The position numbers and the translations under genes were made by a program. The notes under the pieces are model-generated. The model was given only the letters and a program-made list of their open reading frames with translations, was not told where the DNA came from and searched no databases. From NCBI RefSeq assembly GCF_009914755.1, contig NC_060936.1: a DNA stretch of 64,000 nucleotides. One strand, written 5' to 3'. The DNA is from the human T2T-CHM13v2.0 reference genome, Homo sapiens. Positions 1 to 64,000 of this stretch are shown here, one piece after another (positions within the stretch are counted from its first letter, which is position 1; each line of letters opens with the position of its first letter).

Positions 1-540
1 GAAATAGTCTTAGTTTGTGCCTGTTGTCCCGGCATAATTATGGCATTTTATCTCAGGTATCCCAGTTTAAATAATGAATTATACTCTAAATAGGAAAACA
101 TCTGGAAGAATAGACATCAAAATGTTAACATTATTTATCTCTAGGAAATGAAACTGATAAGACTTTTATGTTTGATTAATACACTTGCATAAGGCAACAA
201 GTGAATTATTTTAATAAAAAAAATACACATTGGATTCTCTCTCAATAACTCAAAACATTATCACATAGATTCCACTTCAGAGACAGTGACTGTAGCCGAA
301 AGGAAAGTCCATGGAGATTTCAGCAATGGAGAGAAATGAAAGAATCACTTCCCTTTTTGGGTGCGCAGAAGTCTCCACACGATTCATTGCTCCACTCCTG
401 TTTCTCAGTTGTACAGGCCATAGTCTCCCTTACTATGGTATGGCTGGCATCTTTTCTAGGCTTCCACCTCTTACAGATAAAAGGGGGAATTAAGCAAGTG
501 GGCTGTGAGAGCTAGATAGTTAAGAGAGCAAAGAATCCTA

Positions 541-700
541 AAGCTAAGCCACTGGGATGAATCAGAGATGTTAGGCAGAAAAAGGAAAAAAAGAGACATC
601 CTCCTTCCCCCTCTTTTCCCTGCCTCCTTCTCAAGCTAAGCCACTGGGATGAATCAGAGATGTCAGGCAGAGAGAGGAAAAAAAGAGACATCCTCCTTCC
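541..700 (+). repeat. 68-bp near-tandem direct duplication
   Basis: 541-608 vs 633-700, 65/68 identical, 24-bp pyrimidine spacer. Confidence 0.9.
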
Positions 701-21576: not shown

Positions 21577-22431
21577 TCACACAGGATGGGGGCCAGGGAA
21601 GTATTGGGTAAAAAAGGACAGTGTCCCTGGAGATGGCTCCACCCTCAGGCCTGTGCCCACAGACCTAAGTGAGAACAGGCACTCCTGTTTTCGTGCCCAA
21701 ATGTTGCATTTTCCAAGACTGCTCTGGCCTACCATGCCCCCCATCCTGTTCCCATATAAACCTAAGGCCTTAGCAGGCACAGACGCAAGCAGCTGAAGGT
21801 TGAGCGAAGCAGAAGAACACACCAGCAGACACCAGCAGACCGGCAGACCAGCAACGGCAGAACGACATGGCAGAGAAAGAAAGAAGAGCAGGGACATCTG
21901 GATGCCAAGAGGAGTTCGGCCGGGGGCGGTTAGAGAAGAGTCTGGCAGCTGGGCAGCCCAACTCCTGAGGAAGACCACATTTCCATTCCATCCCCCTCTT
22001 CCAGCTCCCCATCCATCTTGCTGAAAGCCACCCCCACCACTCAATAAAACTTTGCACTGATCCTTCCAGCCCACATGTGATCCGATTTTTCCAACACACT
22101 GGGTAAGAGCTCAGGATACAGAAAGCTGTCACACTGGCCCTCTGCCCTTGCAATAAGGCAGAGGGTCTATTGAGCTGATTAACACAAGCTGTCTGCAGAC
22201 AGCAAAGCTGAAAAAGCACACTGTAACACATGCCCACTTGGGCTTCGGGAGTCGCAGACACCCATCCCTAGATGCTGCCATGGGGCCAAAGCCCAAAAGT
22301 GCTCCACACAGCCTCTGCACCTACCCATCTGCATGCTCCCCCTAGGAGTTTGAGTAGCAGGGCCACCGAAGGCGCAAGCCACACCCCTGTTGCATGTCCT
22401 GTGAGGAGAATAAGGGAACTCTCCTGTTTCA
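21577..22431 (+). mobile_element. LTR1-family (ERV1) solo LTR
   Basis: ...ctaagtgagaacaggcactcctgttttcgtgcccaaatgttgc..., TATA-like cccatataaa (~21752), AATAAA at 22043, ends ggaactctcctgtttca; tcac/tcat flanks. Confidence 0.8.
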
Positions 22432-23819
22432 TCATCAGGTTTTCAGGAAGAGAAACTGAGAAAGATCATCTTAAGGTTTTACATGGGTAGGGAAGAGTAA
22501 CCACTGTGAAATATACCCAGAAGATTATCTACAACAAAGCCCTACTCTTCAGGGCAGAAAACCTTACCATATCATTATCTCATCTCAGGGAAGGGCATTT
22601 CTTCCACTCCAATCCCCTCTAGGCTTTCTATCTCTCCTAAGCTGGGAAAATAAAGCTAAGAAACACTTGCAAAGTTCATTGTCCAAGGACACAGGGCCAC
22701 TAAACACTAAAATGTAATAATAAGATTATAGAACATTTCTCATCTCCCACACCTTATCACCACACCAGTATGGCTCTGATATAGTATCAACGGATTACAG
22801 CTGAAAAAGATATAAGACACAGATTCTCTCTGAGGAGAAGTACTTAGACAAGCCCAGACAGGAGAAACAAAAACTAGAACATTGGAGAAATTTGAAGACT
22901 GATACTCACAGCTATAGCAAACATTAAACACAGCCCAAATCTTAGCCAAATTAACATAAAAGTTCACACTTGAAGGCCTGTTTACCTTTGCTTGTATTAC
23001 CCAATACATCATATCTGCCTTTCAACAAATAATTACAAGGCAAGAAAAAAATTCTGAAGAGACAAAACAAGCATCAGAACCAGTCACCACACAAAACATA
23101 AGGCATACATGTTGGAATTATTGGACAGAGAATTTAAAATCACTATGATTAAGATGTTAAAGGCTTTAATAAAGAAGTAGACAACATGCAAGAACAGATG
23201 GCTGATGTAAGCAGAGGCATGGAAACTCTAAGAAAGAATCAAACAAAAATGCTAGAAATCAAACCCACTATAACAGAAATGAAGAATGCCTTTGATGGGC
23301 TCATCAGTGATTAGATCTGGCTGGGGAGAGAATCAGTAAGCCTGAAGACAATAAAAATTTGCCAAGCTGAACCACAGGACAATTTCAAAGGGTGTAACAT
23401 AAAAGTAATTGGAATACCAGGGGAAAAAAAGAAAGAAAAAGGAACAGAAGAAATATCCAAAGGGATAACAGCTGAGAATTTTCCAAAAGTAATGACAGAC
23501 ACCAAACCACAAATTCAGGAACCTCAGAGAACATCAAGCATGATAAATCACAAAAAAAAAAATACATGGGTATATCATATTCAAACTACATAAAACCAAA
23601 TACAAAGAAAAAAGTCTTGAAAGAAGCCAGAGTGGAAAAAAACACCTTACCCATGGAGGAAAAAGTTAAGAATTACAACTGACTTTTCATCAAAAACCAT
23701 ACAAGTAAGCAGATAATGGAGGGAAATACTTAAACTGTGAGGGGGAAAATCACAACCTAAGATTCTAAATTGAGTGAGATTATCTTTCAAAAGTGAAAGA
23801 TAAATAAATACTTTCTTCA

Positions 23820-29405
<5,586 letters not shown>

Positions 29406-30192: not shown

Positions 30193-30501
30193 ATAAGGCA
30201 GAGGGTCTATTGAGCTGATTAACACAAGCCGTCTGCAGACAGCAAAGCTGAAAAAGCACACTGTAACACATGCCCACTTGGGCTTTGGGAGTCGCAGATA
30301 CCCATCCCTAGATGCTGTCATGGGGCAAAAGACCAAAAGTGCTACCCACAGCCTCTGCATCTGCCCATCTGCATGCTCCCCCTAGGAGTCTGAGTAGCGG
30401 GGTCACCGAAGGAGCAAGCCATACACCTGTTGCATGTTCTGTGAGGAGAATAAGGGAACTCTCCTGTTTCATCACCAAGTTTTCAGGAAGAGAAACTAAG
30501 A
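30193..30501 (+). repeat. 309-bp local duplicate of 22153-22461 (LTR1 3' end plus flank)
   Basis: Ungapped alignment at offset 8040; about 20 mismatches counted by hand. Confidence 0.93.
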
Positions 30502-47690: not shown

Positions 47691-54156
<6,466 letters not shown>

Positions 54157-56276
54157 AAAGAGTAAAGAAGTCTCAAAACTCAGCAGTAAGACAATTAAAA
54201 ACAGTTTAAAAAATAGGCAAAAGATTTTAAGACAGTTTAGCAAAATAATTATACAAATGGAAAATAAGCACATGAACAAATGCACATTATCATTATTCAT
54301 TATGAATAATTATTTAAAACTACAGGAAGTTATCACTAAACACCTATTAGAATAGCTTTATTTATTCATTTATTTACTTATTCATTTACTAAAAGCCATT
54401 AACAATACCAGATGCTGGTAAGGATGCAAAACAACTAAAACTCTCATACATGACTGATGGAAATGCAAAATGGCACAGTTACTTAAGACAACAGTTTGAC
54501 AGTTTCTCATATAGCTACACATTAATTACTATATGACTCAGCAATTCCATTCCCAGTTATTTATCAAAGACAAATACAAATTTATATTCACACAAAAACC
54601 TGTACATAGATGTTTATAGCACCTTAATTTATAACTGCCAGAAACTGGAAACAGCACAAATGCTCTTTAGCTTGTGGATGATAAACAAACTCTGGTCCAT
54701 CCATAAAAAGGAATATGATTCAGCAATTTTTAAAAATACTCAACTGGATACCAAGCAAAAATAAATCTCAAATACATCATGTTAGGTGAAAAAAACCATA
54801 GGCTACATGCTGTATGATTCCAATTATACAATATTTTGGAAAAGGCAGAACTACAGGGAGAGAGGATAGATCAGTGGTTGTCAGAGGTTGGGACTGGAGA
54901 GTGATTTGATGCCAAAGGGATATTGAGAAATGTTCTTTTCATGATGAAACTGTTATGTATCTTGATTGGGTGGTGGTGATCCTATGACTCTATGCATGTT
55001 TCACAATTCAAAGAACGGTACACTAAATAGTAAATTTTACTATATGTAAAATTAAAATATAATCAGACATACATTTCTAAATAAATTAAATTTTAATCTT
55101 GTTAGATTCTCTCTCCATGTAGTTTTTATCAACCCAGTGTGCTTTTGCCTTATATCTAGCCACAATTCTATGAGTATAGCATAAGTGGAAAACAGACTTT
55201 TATGGATAATCAGTAGTCTCCACCATATAAAGTTTAATTCTGCATGAAATCATTCTCTAGTACAAACCCTTTCTATATAGATCTGCAAATAAAATGATGT
55301 GAAGATTAAAAATTTTCAGGTTGCAGAACAAAAACATTGTGCCAATTCTGTCCTCTATGTAGAAGCTTGGTAAGACCATTGCAGGCTGTTTGATAAACTA
55401 TAAAGGGAAGAGAAAACCAACTGCAAGGGACTAGACAGAGGAAAAAAATGAAAGTACAAGGCAGGGTAAAAGAGAAGAATACAGTGTAAACAGAGAGGAG
55501 AGACAGGATTAGAAAGGGAAGAAAAGATAAATGGGGAATAAAATATGAAAAAAATAGACAGTGTATGAAATTTTTATATCTTTGTTATGTGGAATAATTT
55601 TTCATGGTTGTAGCTATAAAGCAAAACTGAAGTCAATTGGGAACTATGTGTTACTTTGTTTTGGTAAGTTAAATTAAGTTTCTCACACAATGAAACAAAT
55701 TACTAAAAGTCTCCCTCATTACAAAAATATTGCCAATTATTTCTCCTTAGTTCTAGCTTATAACATCACTGTCTATCTCAGAAAATGAAATTGTCTAAAT
55801 GTCCTTTTAAGAGTATCTCTGATGCTGGTTCTCACGTCCTTCAAATGTAGAAAAACTACTTTCTCCATAAATGTTAAGTTGCAAACAACATTGAAATCAA
55901 TTTATAAGCTAGATAAAGACTACCATAAAGTTTCCACAAAAGTACACTCACCTCATGCTGCTGATGTAAGCATTTAACATAAAAGGTTTATATATGCAGT
56001 TCTCTGGAACCTCTCTCTAAAAGTTAGCAATCCCTATCCATCCCAAACAACCAGAGAACAACCAGTCTGCAAATCTGAGCGCAGTCTGCTTTTCTGCTTT
56101 CTACTACACTTGGTGCCATTTTGGTCTCTCTCAAGGCCTTCAGCTTTGTGTTGAGAAGGGGACCCCTCTCCTCCCTCTCCATCAGCAATATCAAGGTCAG
56201 GGAAGCATTTTTAAAAGTTTCTGCTTAGGTCTGATTCTCCATACCACAGCATATATTTGAATTATGACATGCGTGT

Positions 56277-57657: not shown

Positions 57658-57948
57658 TAGCGACAGCCAAGTAAAAACGGGTTCTGGAAGAATCTCCCAC
57701 CAGCCTGCACAGTGGGAGGACAGGGCGGGACCTCGGGAAGTTCGCGTTGTTTGCAGCGGGGAGGATCCCGGCCTCTCCTGTCCCTGGGATTCAATCTGTG
57801 AGATGAAGGCCTGTTAACAGGAACGCCTCTCGCTTTGCTGATTTTTTTTTTTCTTTCACCCAATAAATTCCACTCCTCGCCCTTCTGTGTGTCCACGAGC
57901 CTAATTTTTCCTAGTCATGTGACAACAGCCCGTTTTTTTCCTACAACA
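57658..57948 (+). mobile_element. MER61-family (ERV1) solo LTR
   Basis: gacagccaagt...ggaagttcgcgttgtttgcagcggggagga...caataaattc...ctacaaca. Confidence 0.75.
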
Positions 57949-59263: not shown

Positions 59264-60727
59264 AAGGTGTCTACATGCTGGAGGGGGAGGAAAATGCATC
59301 AGGTCACACCAGACAATCTGGATCAAAAAGGCATACTTCCTCCTACCATGAAAAAATAGCCTCTCCACTTTAAAATATTAAATGAAAAATACATGTTGTA
59401 TATGTGAAAGTTATAGAAAAGGGCTAATTATAAAAAAATAGTTTAGTGCCAATACTGGTTCATAAATCCTTATTTTTAACTAATGCTGTTAAAATGCATA
59501 CCAAAATCTTTCTTCTTAGTGACAATCCTGGCCTGAATCACTGAAATTTATACAAACAAATTACATTCAAAGAAAAATCTGTGTTTAAAGACAGGGCCTT
59601 AAAAATGTTTCTCTAGTTGAACTAGATATTCAATAGATTCATAAAACTTTCATTGCCAAAGCGTACAAAACATTTATTTTTAAAAGCTCTGCCTCTATAT
59701 TATCTATGCCAAGTAAAATAGAATTTTATTTGGATTAAATGTCTTTGAGACATTTATAAGGCTCACTATTTGCAGGGAGGTCTATTTTACTAAATTAAAA
59801 AATGTCACTGAGACAAAGCAATTAAGTGTTAAATAACTTACTTTCCTATTTCAGACATAAATCTGTGTAGGTAGAGATGGTCTTGATAAACTATGATAGA
59901 AGCAATCTGGCATCATACCTAGATGTCACCAACATTTTAAGCAATGGAAAAAAAATAACATGGCTTAGGATCATTTGAGACCTTGGCTGGAGGCCACAGC
60001 TTCTGTGGCTTCTGAATTGTTTAGGAAAGAAGCTGAGGTTTGGTTGTTCCTTTTTTGCATTCTTTCATGAAAGGAGAGAGATATATCCAAGGGATGAAAT
60101 TAATAAAAGAAAAAAAAATCTGTTATCAGAGTTGGTCAACAGGCATCACAAGCTCGGATTCCAAGAGCCTGGAAAAACAAGTGAGAGGCGAGAGGTTGGT
60201 TCTCAAACTAAGAGCTGATGTGAGGTGCCTGACTTTCAGCAAGCCGGTAGACTTCCCCAGTACCTATCCTGCACATGCAGAGACCCTGACCACAGCCAAG
60301 CAGACAAAGCCAATTTAAAAACAGAATGTCAGAGAAAAACTGGAGAAGCAAAGCAATGCCTAAGAGTGGGAGAGGCAGAAGCAGGCTTGAATGAGTAATC
60401 GTGACTAGCTTCATGGAGAAGTAGATAATCTCTGCCCCAGAGAGATAAAGGGTAAAGCTATAGACATTCCCCTCTCACCTAGAAAGACAAAGTGGCCTTT
60501 CTGGAAATTGATGGTATGAAACCTAGATGTGAGATCACTTAAACCTTATGTAGTGTTATCTTAGGTAGTGTTATGTAGTGCATATATGTGCTGTTTAGAC
60601 TTGCAAAATAAGAATCTAATACCTACTGGCTCCAAACAAATAGTTAATTTAGGGGAGTTAAGCTCCAGGGAATCACATGTATAGTGATAGCCCTACAAAG
60701 CCCAAGCAATGTAAAAAAAAAAAAAAA

Positions 60728-61036
60728 TTTTTTTTTTTTTTTTTGAGACAGAGTGTCACTCTTTCACCAGGATGGAGTACAGTGGCATGATCTCGGCTCA
60801 CTGCAACCAGGAAAGATTAGGCTTGGGGACACACAGAAGGGCGAGGAGTGCGTTCAAGCAATTCTCCTGCCTCAGCCTCCCAAGTAGCTGGGACTACAGG
60901 TGTGCGCCACCACGCCCAGCTAATTTTTGTATTTTTAGTAGAGACAGGGTTTCACCATGTTGGCCAGGATAGTCTCGATCTCTTGATCTCGTGATCCTCT
61001 CAACTCGGCCTCCCGAAGGGCTGGAATTACAGGGGT
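60728..61036 (-). mobile_element. AluS-like, antisense, with a 42-bp foreign insert
   Basis: T-tail, gagacagagtgtcactc...gagccactg; aaaaatttttt duplicated at both ends. Confidence 0.9.
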
Positions 61037-64000
61037 GAGCCACTGAAACCAGCCGGAAAAATTTTTTTGTGACTTTCATTTCTGGAACTCAGTCTGGCTG
61101 CATTTCTGGACCATCACTCCAGCTGAGAACAACCATAAATGCTGAACACATTTAAATGTTGTTGTATCATTTTAAAGGCCTTGAAGAGAAGAGATGACAA
61201 GCAATTACTGGGCCTAAATCTAGGAGAAGGCAGAAACCCAGAGAGGAAAACAAAGCTCCGAAGCTAATTTTGCTCTGAGAGTGTTTGCTGAACCCTGCGG
61301 ACTTGTAATTTTGTTTTCACTGCTCGAGGGCTGTGGGACCACCATAGACAGGTAAGACAGAGACTGGCTTTGTGCTCACAGATCCTGTTTCTTTATTCTT
61401 GGCTTACAGGAAGATTGTATTTCCTATTGCTTCTTATAGTTATGTTGGAGACACATGTCTAGTTTAGTCAATAGAATAAGTACAGAACTTATGAATGTCA
61501 CTTCCACACCCAGCCCTTAAAGTCATCCTCAAGAGCTCAGTTTCCTTTGCCAAATATTAACAACTTCTTGACAGATGCCTTGGAGGGGACACACCTAAGA
61601 GAGTCATTTGACCTATGTCTGACTATGACATGAATGAAATAATACATTTTTATTTTTTTAAGCCACCAAGATTTTGGCTACAGAAGCTGGTGAGGATTAT
61701 GCTGACAAGTTCCAGGGACTGCAAAGAAGCCCTTTGGAAAGACTTGTAAACAGGAATATATATATTAATATATATTTTTAAAGTTTTCATGATGAAATAT
61801 TTTAGACTTACAAATGAATAGCAAAAATAGTACGAAGAGTTCCTGTACACTCTTCACCCAACTTCTCCAAATGTTTAATCTTACATAATTGAGTAAAATG
61901 ATCAAAATCAAGAAAATAACACTAGTAAATGCCACTAATTCATCTATAAACTGTATTTAAATTTTGTCAACTGTCCCTATGTGCCCCTTTTCCTGGATCA
62001 GGATGCTATCAAAGATCACACAATGCATTTATTTATCTTCTTACTCTTTAATCTGGGATAGTTTCTTAATCTTTCTTTATCTTTTGTGACCTTCACAATT
62101 CTGAAGAGTGTGTGCCCATAGTTTTGTAGAGTGTCCCTCACTTTGGATTTGTCCGATGTTTCTTTTTGATTAAATCAGGTTATATATGTTGGCCTCATGA
62201 CTGCAAAAAAAAAAAAAAAAAGAAACCCTCAGCCTCAAAAATGTAAAAAATAATATCAACCCACCAACCCACTCTATAGGCCCAACCACAGACCACAACG
62301 AATGTTATCTTAGTTGAACAGAAAAGGGGAGAAGTGGAGAGACACTTGAAAAACCATAAACAGAAGTAAGTGAACACATGGATGACTAAATCATGATCAC
62401 ATTTGCTGGACTGTGTAAAAAAAAAAAAAATTCCAATTGAGAATTCAGTTTAAAATTGTATCCGATTATAGTATAGCCTAGAGTCCAGCAAATGCAAAAA
62501 CAAATCGTTTTTGTAGGGATTCGTCTTTATCCCAGGCATCAAAGAACTTTCACAAATAGTTTTAGAGGGAAAATGCATGGATCACAACCCAAAACCACTG
62601 AAAACAGCAGGCAACAAAGCAGCATGAGCAAAAATAGCAGAAATAGCAGGCAGCAGGAATAGACATGAAAAGAGATGATATATTGGAATTGACAGAAATA
62701 TAATTCCATACTTGCTATGCCTAAAAAATAAAAGACTAATTTGGAAGTATCTATAGGAATCAGAAAACTATAAAGAATGACCAGCAGATTTGAAAATGGT
62801 ACAAATAAAACTTATCCTGTTGAAGAATGTAATACCAAATTTCATAAATATAACATGCATTTATTTTCTGACTATTACTTCCTTTCAGCTGAAAGGCCAC
62901 AATCTATGGCAATATTGATTCAAAGAAACATGGTCATTGAAATAAAAAGTCATTGGAAAGTTTTAATAGCACATGAGACAAAGTTAAAAGGACAATTGGT
63001 GAGATGTAAAATGAGTCAGAGGGAACCAACCATCCAGAAAGATGCACAATGAGAAAAATAAATGAAAAATGTGTTTTTTGAACAATTTTGAAACATGGAG
63101 GAGAAAGCACTTCCAAAATTACGGAATAAAGATCTATAATCTTTATTTTTAAGAATGCTGGAAATTGATGGCTTGCCACAATCCAGGAGCATTTATTAAA
63201 GAAAAACAGTTGAATTTTAGTTATAATATTACAGTGAGCCCTGTGATGTTTTAACTTGCTCTGGTCTCATCTGCCTTCTCTAGTTCTCCAGTAGCCTTGA
63301 AAGCCAACAGCCTCAAAAATGTCATAGCTGTGAAAACCACAACCTAGCATCCCTGGAGGGGACAGAACAGGTTTGGACCACCCCAAAAACTCCATACTCA
63401 GAGAATTGTCAGTATTTGACCAGTCTGTAAGCTCCCTGAAAAGTTTCTTTCTCAGAGCTTGGTCTGTGTAACTACCTTAGGCTATTGTCTTAAAAACACT
63501 CAACAGTAGTTATTTAACACTACAGTTGCATGAAGCAGTGATAAAAGTTGGGGATAGTAACAAGAAGCTACCACGAAATTCAAAAGGAAGAGTGGGGAAT
63601 GAGATGTCCGTGGGGTCATTGAAAAGCTCTGACAAATTTCTGGGAATCTAGAAGGCAACGTGCATGTGCCAAGGAAGACCTGACAAGGCCCTGATCTCTT
63701 ACCTTTGGCAGATCTTAAGGCTCTGTGCAAGCAAGAAGAGAAGGTTAAGGCAGAGTTGTGAACTACTTGCTTGCTAAGGACTGACAACATGTTCCAACAC
63801 ACTCTGAGAGATTCTTAGCAAAGACTGGTGTACTTACTGGTTTAAGACATTTGAGGAAATAGTGTTGAATTATTACCTGATTGGTAAGTTAACATAAAAG
63901 AGATTTTAGAGACTACACACTACAAAGAATACAGAGTTCAAAAAATTGGTCCAGGAAAGTCACTATACGACCAAACAAACAACAGCAATAACAACATCAA

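What the first reader, a model, noticed from the sequence alone, without database searches (positions are those of the whole stretch)
60809..60851. Alu carries a 42-bp inverted copy of the MER61 LTR 3 kb upstream
Seen: the expected Alu ctgcaacc-tccgcctcccgg-gttcaagc instead reads ctgcaacc-AGGAAAGATTAGGCTTGGGGACACACAGAAGGGCGAGGAGTG-cgttcaagc. The insert matches the reverse complement of 57871-57912 at 39/42. Inference: a deletion-plus-templated-insertion repair scar (template switch/MMBIR or polymerase theta end joining) copied from a nearby locus.
Basis: partly seen in the sequence, partly recalled or inferred. Interest (0 to 1): 0.72.

Follow-up and report, generated by a model that had tools for sequence, protein, structure and literature searches.

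The report
Old DNA-repair patch inside an Alu
Inside one Alu repeat on human chromosome 12, 12 bases are replaced by 43, of which 42 resemble a retroviral LTR, likely copied backwards from the LTR 2.9 kb away during an ancient repair event: a real but ordinary kind of mutation scar.

Summary
A minus-strand Alu has 43 bases (60809-60851) where 22 of 24 comparable Alus have 12. Forty-two of them match the reverse complement of 57871-57912 at 39/42.

Genome-wide, only the local copy and one chr3 copy lie within 3 mismatches; a chr5 copy also reaches 39 with one gap. Sequence alone gives the local copy 32-40%. It shares one rare base with the insert (2 of 99 other copies) but differs at two well-conserved positions. 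Proximity decides: published complex deletions have 871 local against 41 distal templates, so a local donor is about 95% likely.

A 3-base microhomology at the left junction (84 of 99 family copies) points to a microhomology-primed template switch. The most likely route is repair after the Alu had inserted. Polymerase theta and MMBIR cannot be told apart. A double switch by L1 reverse transcriptase during Alu insertion is not excluded, because the ages overlap.

The donor is MER61-related; its subfamily is untested. No functional role is evident. This is a known, common class; a second likely example lies in this window.

The parts
60809..60850 (-). 42-bp LTR-derived insert; LTR-sense when read in the Alu's sense (minus strand), inverted relative to the local LTR
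60851..60851 (.). Right junction base that matches neither the donor nor 20 of 22 Alus (both have G in register): junction error or later substitution
60806..60808 (+). Left junction: 3 Alu bases that are also the flank in 84 of 99 family LTR copies (candidate priming microhomology); the local copy matches 2 of the 3
60728..61056 (-). Host Alu with 17-T tail (60728-60744), full-length apart from the 12-bp loss in the right arm; AluS-type, probably AluSc (subfamily diagnostics recalled, not tested)
61057..61068 (.). A/T-rich stretch resembling the A-run/T-run at 60713-60734: probable target-site duplication of the Alu (inferred)
57871..57912 (+). Likely donor segment, starting 3 nt after the LTR's AATAAA (57862-57867); 2,896 bases from the insert
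57662..57948 (+). MER61-related LTR (part matched by family copies; 5' end not traced, shorter than several relatives)

Best explanation
The Alu carries a 12-bp deletion filled by 43 bases, likely copied in inverted orientation from the LTR 2.9 kb upstream by a microhomology-primed template switch during repair of a break or stalled fork, probably after the Alu had inserted. Shown: the 12-to-43 replacement, the 39/42 match and the family-level 3-base microhomology on the left. Inferred: the plus-strand 3' end at 60808 paired through about 3 bases with the plus strand of the LTR (fold-back on resected DNA, or the sister chromatid), copied 42-43 bases, let go, and rejoined the Alu 12 bases further on, where donor and Alu share 1-3 bases. 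The differences between insert and donor are later mutations or copying errors. The enzyme (polymerase theta or an MMBIR polymerase) is not determined. The scar is predicted to be old, fixed and neutral.
For: Genome-wide, only 2 places other than the insert lie within 3 mismatches, and one of them is 2.9 kb away. The local copy ties for first among 102 copies compared. The base at 60842 is shared with the local copy (57879) and with only 2 of 99 other copies; the base at 60834 with 13 of 99. The chance of any family copy within 3 kb is 0.06-0.6% for an assumed 300-3000 copies. Sudmant et al. 2015 (PMC4617611, passages): of 1,651 complex deletions, 871 had a template within 10 kb and 41 a distal one, with microhomology at the template boundaries. 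With a prior of only 1% for local templates the posterior for the local donor is 0.97-0.999 (rough model). 84 of 99 copies share at least 3 uninterrupted bases with the Alu flank at the left junction. Reverse-complement inserts are the described outcome of in-cis fold-back (PMC5068794, passages) and of MMBIR (PMC8421209, passages). A second duplication with a clearly local donor lies in the same window.
Against: Sequence alone does not single out the local copy: its flat-prior share is 0.32-0.40, with L003 and L008 close behind. The local copy differs from the insert at 60815, where 90 of 99 other copies agree with the insert. It also differs at the junction base 60808, so its own uninterrupted left microhomology is 0. 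If five Alu flank bases are added, a chr16 copy (L002) scores 43/47 against 41/47 for the local copy. The right junction is broken by the mismatch at 60851. Timing is unresolved: 3/42 divergence (95% interval 1.5-19.5%) overlaps the Alu's 13-17% distance to its nearest sampled Alus (P 0.11-0.19). In worms about 85% of polymerase-theta inserts prime within 10 bp of the break, and MMBSearch looks only within 100 bp, so 2.9 kb is atypical for both model classes.
Confidence: 0.8

Rival explanations
1. The insert arose during the Alu's insertion. L1 ORF2p, copying the Alu RNA from the poly(T) primer at 60728 rightwards, switched at 60808 onto the nearby LTR's sense strand (a local nascent transcript or DNA), copied 42 bases and switched back to the Alu RNA 12 bases further on.
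For: The insert is LTR-sense within the Alu's sense, the orientation expected from reverse-transcriptase switching (PMC13174262, passages). The clearer microhomology is at the junction that first-strand cDNA reaches first. The donor segment starts 3 nt after AATAAA, in the part of an LTR that is transcribed. Insert age cannot be separated from Alu age.
Against: It needs two switches with a return to the same RNA; the chimeras described in the passages read are single 5'-terminal joins. Orientation is a one-in-two coincidence and is equally predicted by fold-back repair. The point estimate of insert divergence (7%) is about half the Alu's (13-17%).
Confidence: 0.12
2. The patch came from a distant copy of the family, or from its RNA or cDNA (class 2 templated sequence insertion), and the nearby LTR is a coincidence.
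For: chr3:193,666,980 ties at 39/42 and chr5 L003 ties with one gap. Some distant copies give 5 bases of left microhomology (17 of 99). Distant-template patches are described (PMC5110952, first quarter of the text read).
Against: It needs a family copy within 3 kb by chance (under 1%), which also ranks in the top 3 of 102 and shares a base seen in 2 of 99 other copies. Distal templates are the minority, 41 against 871 (with different match thresholds for the two classes).
Confidence: 0.05
3. The source Alu already carried the insert (a chimeric Alu lineage), or the junction is an assembly artefact.
For: None direct. Reads and other assemblies could not be examined.
Against: The 42-mer occurs exactly once in the genome, and no other place among the 40 candidates scored spans both junctions. 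Three internal differences from the donor, one of them of CpG-decay type, are unlike a misjoin of modern reads.
Confidence: 0.03

Closest known systems
Complex deletions with locally templated insertion ('Ins with Dup and Del'), Sudmant et al. 2015, PMC4617611
   Same: Deletion plus an insert of at least 10 bp copied from within 10 kb, forward or reverse complement, with microhomology at the template boundaries.
   Different: Those are polymorphic deletions of mean 3.1 kb; this one loses only 12 bp, is net +31 bp, and is predicted to be fixed and tens of millions of years old.
MMB-TI, MMBIR-type templated insertions (PMC8421209)
   Same: Inverted copy of a nearby template that replaces reference bases, flanked by microhomology; found as germline variants.
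   Different: Defined there with templates within 100 bp; here the template is 2.9 kb away.
Polymerase theta (TMEJ) templated inserts and snap-back delins (PMC5068794)
   Same: Small deletion with an insert, 1-3 base priming, reverse-complement orientation for in-cis snap-back, error-prone copying with mismatches near the end of the tract.
   Different: In worms inserts are mostly under 25 bp and primed within 10 bp of the break; about 3% come from distant sites.
Class 2 templated sequence insertion polymorphisms (PMC5110952)
   Same: A patch at a break with small deletion and microhomology, no poly(A) or target-site duplication of its own.
   Different: Defined as coming from a distant region; here the likely donor is local.
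L1-mediated chimeric retro-insertions (U6/L1, Alu/L1; PMC13174262)
   Same: Sense-oriented foreign RNA-type sequence inside a unit bounded by one target-site duplication.
   Different: Described chimeras are terminal joins; this is an internal out-and-back replacement.

Membership tests
Deletion with locally templated insertion (Sudmant 2015 class) | Reference bases lost and at least 10 bp inserted at the breakpoint | tested here: met
   43 bases where 22 of 24 Alus have 12; ancestral state inferred from paralogues, not orthologues
Deletion with locally templated insertion (Sudmant 2015 class) | Template match within 10 kb | tested here: met
   39/42 at 2,896 bp; tied best in the genome
Deletion with locally templated insertion (Sudmant 2015 class) | Microhomology between breakpoints and template boundaries | tested here: inconclusive
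   Left: at least 3 bases in 84 of 99 family copies, but 2 of 3 and interrupted in the local copy. Right: donor and Alus agree at 1-3 positions, but the window differs at 60851
MMB-TI (MMBSearch definition) | Inverted orientation relative to template | tested here: met
MMB-TI (MMBSearch definition) | Template within 100 bp | tested here: not met
   2.9 kb; it works like an MMB-TI but falls outside that operational definition
Polymerase theta templated insertion | Dependence on POLQ | not testable with these tools
   Ancient germline event
Polymerase theta templated insertion | Template in the immediate flank of the break | tested here: not met
   2.9 kb against about 85% within 10 bp in worms
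L1 ORF2p template-switch chimera | Foreign sequence in the same sense as the retroelement | tested here: met
   LTR-sense within Alu-sense
L1 ORF2p template-switch chimera | Foreign sequence arrives together with the element (same age in orthologues) | not testable with these tools
   No primate genomes held; divergence dating inconclusive
MER61 LTR (donor) | Homology to a Dfam-called MER61 copy | tested here: met
   70% over 57783-57931, E 1e-14, to the LINC01021 promoter MER61C of PMC5732690
MER61 LTR (donor) | Best Dfam/RepeatMasker subfamily call | not testable with these tools
   No repeat library; the donor lacks the p53-like 20-mer found in the MER61C copy (motif recalled)

The most novel reading that the evidence does not exclude
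The insert is a fossil of L1 reverse transcriptase hopping, in the middle of an Alu insertion, onto the transcript or DNA of an LTR 2.9 kb away and back onto the same Alu RNA: an out-and-back switch onto a locally supplied template. Old Alus with internal foreign patches would then be a datable record of local template capture.
Probability: 0.12. Interest if true: 0.5.

Novelty: new member of a known kind. Interest (0 to 1): 0.2.

Why it matters
As a single event it matters little: it is intergenic, about 44 kb upstream of the ST8SIA1 start, has no listed functional element, and the insert leaves the LTR's AATAAA behind. Its value is methodological. An Alu supplies its own pre-mutation state from paralogues, so ancient fixed templated insertions can be read from one genome and dated by insert-donor divergence. 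A genome-wide census could give the distance and orientation spectrum of kilobase-range template switching over primate evolution, a range that MMBSearch's 100-bp window leaves out.

Tried and rejected
'Local copy is the unique best hit': tested, and it is a tie. Identity alone as evidence: rejected, because 21 of 153 same-register pairs are as close. Chimeric Alu subfamily: rejected, the 42-mer is single-copy. Alu inserted into an LTR remnant: rejected, Alu sequence continues in register on both sides. Transfer of a poly(A) signal or p53 site: the insert holds neither. An RNA hairpin between the two arms: the isolated strands pair (-48.8 kcal/mol with DNA parameters), but no annotated transcript covers both. 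A full genome-wide mismatch distribution beyond 3 mismatches was not obtainable; the 101 copies are a sample chosen by similarity to the insert, the local LTR, L002 or L008, not a census, and 2 poorly aligned copies (L023, L061) were dropped before the counts. Abyzov et al. 2015, which I recall reporting micro-insertion templates at 20-60 bp and 2-6 kb, was not held, and searches for that statement did not return it; it is recalled only. A search for this locus in print (ST8SIA1 + MER61 + Alu) returned 0 papers; subscription journals are mostly not covered.

Full report
Observation. The window holds a minus-strand Alu at 60728-61056. Bases 60809-60850 match the reverse complement of 57871-57912 at 39 of 42 positions without gaps; the next best place in the window scores 24. 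Of 24 other Alus, in the window and in fetched loci, that carried both flanking anchors, 22 have 12 bases where this one has 43. The lesion is therefore a 12-bp deletion with a 43-bp insertion. The last base (60851) matches neither the donor nor 20 of those 22 Alus.

The donor family. 57662-57948 is the part of a plus-strand LTR-like repeat matched by dispersed copies (635 first-look candidates, not a copy number). It is on average 19% diverged by substitutions from 50 aligned relatives, with AATAAA at 57862. To test the name I located the LINC01021 promoter, which PMC5732690 calls MER61C (passages and supplement rows), using a published primer. It aligns to 57783-57931 at 70%, E 1e-14, and has a perfect p53-like 20-mer that the local LTR lacks (motif recalled). 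The donor is MER61-related; the subfamily is untested.

Is the local copy the donor? A genome-wide pattern search with up to 3 mismatches found the insert itself, the local copy and chr3:193,666,980, the last two with 3 mismatches each. Among 101 other copies fetched (chosen by similarity, not a census), gapped alignment gave 39 matches for two (L008, and L003 with one gap) and 38 for five. With equal priors the local copy takes 0.32-0.40. In its favour, the base at 60842 is shared with it and with only 2 of 99 usable copies (two poorly aligned copies dropped), and the base at 60834 with 13 of 99. Against it, it differs at 60815, where 90 of 99 agree with the insert, and at the junction base 60808. 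Adding five flank bases puts L002 (43/47) ahead of the local copy (41/47). Also, 21 of 153 same-register pairs are within 3 mismatches of each other. Sequence alone thus leaves a three-way tie.

Proximity breaks the tie. A family copy within 3 kb has a chance of 0.06-0.6% for an assumed 300-3000 copies. Sudmant et al. 2015 (PMC4617611, passages) found a template within 10 kb at 871 of 1,651 complex deletions and a distal one at 41. Even a 1% prior for local templates gives a posterior of 0.97-0.999, and a 0.1% prior gives 0.78-0.99 (rough model). Allowing for the fact that a window reader can only notice local matches, I put the local donor at about 0.95.

Junctions. At the left junction, 84 of 99 family copies share at least 3 uninterrupted bases with the Alu flank at 60806-60808 (17 share 5). 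The local copy shares two of the three and differs at the innermost, a base found in 4 of 58 other copies; a later change in the donor is the simplest account (inference). At the right junction, donor and Alus agree on G at the position of 60851 (20 of 22 Alus), on G at 60850 (12 of 22) and on T at 60849 (6 of 22), but the window has C at 60851. Priming microhomology is well supported on the left at family level and weakly on the right.

Mechanism. A plus-strand 3' end at 60808 that pairs with the plus strand of the LTR and copies it gives exactly this inverted insert. In repair terms this is fold-back onto a resected overhang, or invasion of the sister, followed by release and rejoining 12 bases on. 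Reverse-complement inserts are the described outcome of in-cis snap-back by polymerase theta (PMC5068794, passages) and of MMBIR (PMC8421209, passages). Both model classes use templates much closer than 2.9 kb, so I do not name the enzyme. The kilobase range fits the human complex-deletion data. I recall Abyzov et al. 2015 reporting a 2-6 kb mode, but the paper was not held and this is unverified.

The rival that survives. The same geometry describes first-strand cDNA synthesis during the Alu's insertion: the cDNA is the plus strand growing rightwards from the poly(T), and the insert is LTR-sense within Alu-sense, as expected for reverse-transcriptase switching (PMC13174262, passages). It needs an out-and-back double switch, which the passages I read do not describe. 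Dating does not exclude it. Insert and donor differ at 3/42 (7%, interval 1.5-19.5%), or 5/44 with both junction bases. The Alu differs from its closest sampled Alus by 13-17% (9-13% outside CpG-like sites); the chance of 3 or fewer differences at 13-15% is 0.11-0.19. With a recalled neutral rate of 1-2 per billion per year, the point estimate is roughly 18-36 million years, so the scar is predicted in all apes. No primate genomes were available.

In-window comparison. 30193-30501 is a 309-bp direct copy of 22153-22461 (20 differences). It comprises the 3' part of another LTR plus about 30 bases of that LTR's own flank; the local match is 94% against at most 87% for the other 38 hits listed. 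There the local donor is clear, so two likely locally templated insertions sit within 64 kb, which fits a common class.

Verdict. No function is evident: it is intergenic, has no RefSeq element, and carries no poly(A) signal or p53-like site. One search for the locus in print gave no paper. Supplements of the structural-variant papers were not read and could list this site only if it were polymorphic. Interest 0.2.

Noticed in passing
window 22153-22461 and 30193-30501: A 309-bp direct duplication, 93.5% identical, 8,040 bp apart: the 3' part of an LTR plus about 30 bp of its unique flank, copied to a site just after an old interspersed repeat. The local donor is clear (94% against at most 87% for other copies). 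Likely a second locally templated insertion of similar divergence; an L1-like stretch and an Alu lie between. Nine of the 20 differences are C versus T and six are C/A transversions.
   Followed up: partly
window 538-608 and 630-700: A 71-bp near-tandem duplication, 94% identical, period about 92 bp.
   Followed up: no
window 23865-28927 and 49132-54159: Two long repeat copies of about 5 kb, 87% identical, same orientation; L1-like by size and masking (family not tested).
   Followed up: no
window 60713-60744: An A15 run directly followed by the Alu's T17 tail forms a perfect short palindrome; the A run looks like an expanded part of the target-site duplication.
   Followed up: no
window 57662-57948: The donor LTR matches relatives over only about 290 bp; several close copies extend 350-430 bp upstream of the donor segment against about 250 here, so the local copy may be 5'-truncated.
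   Followed up: partly
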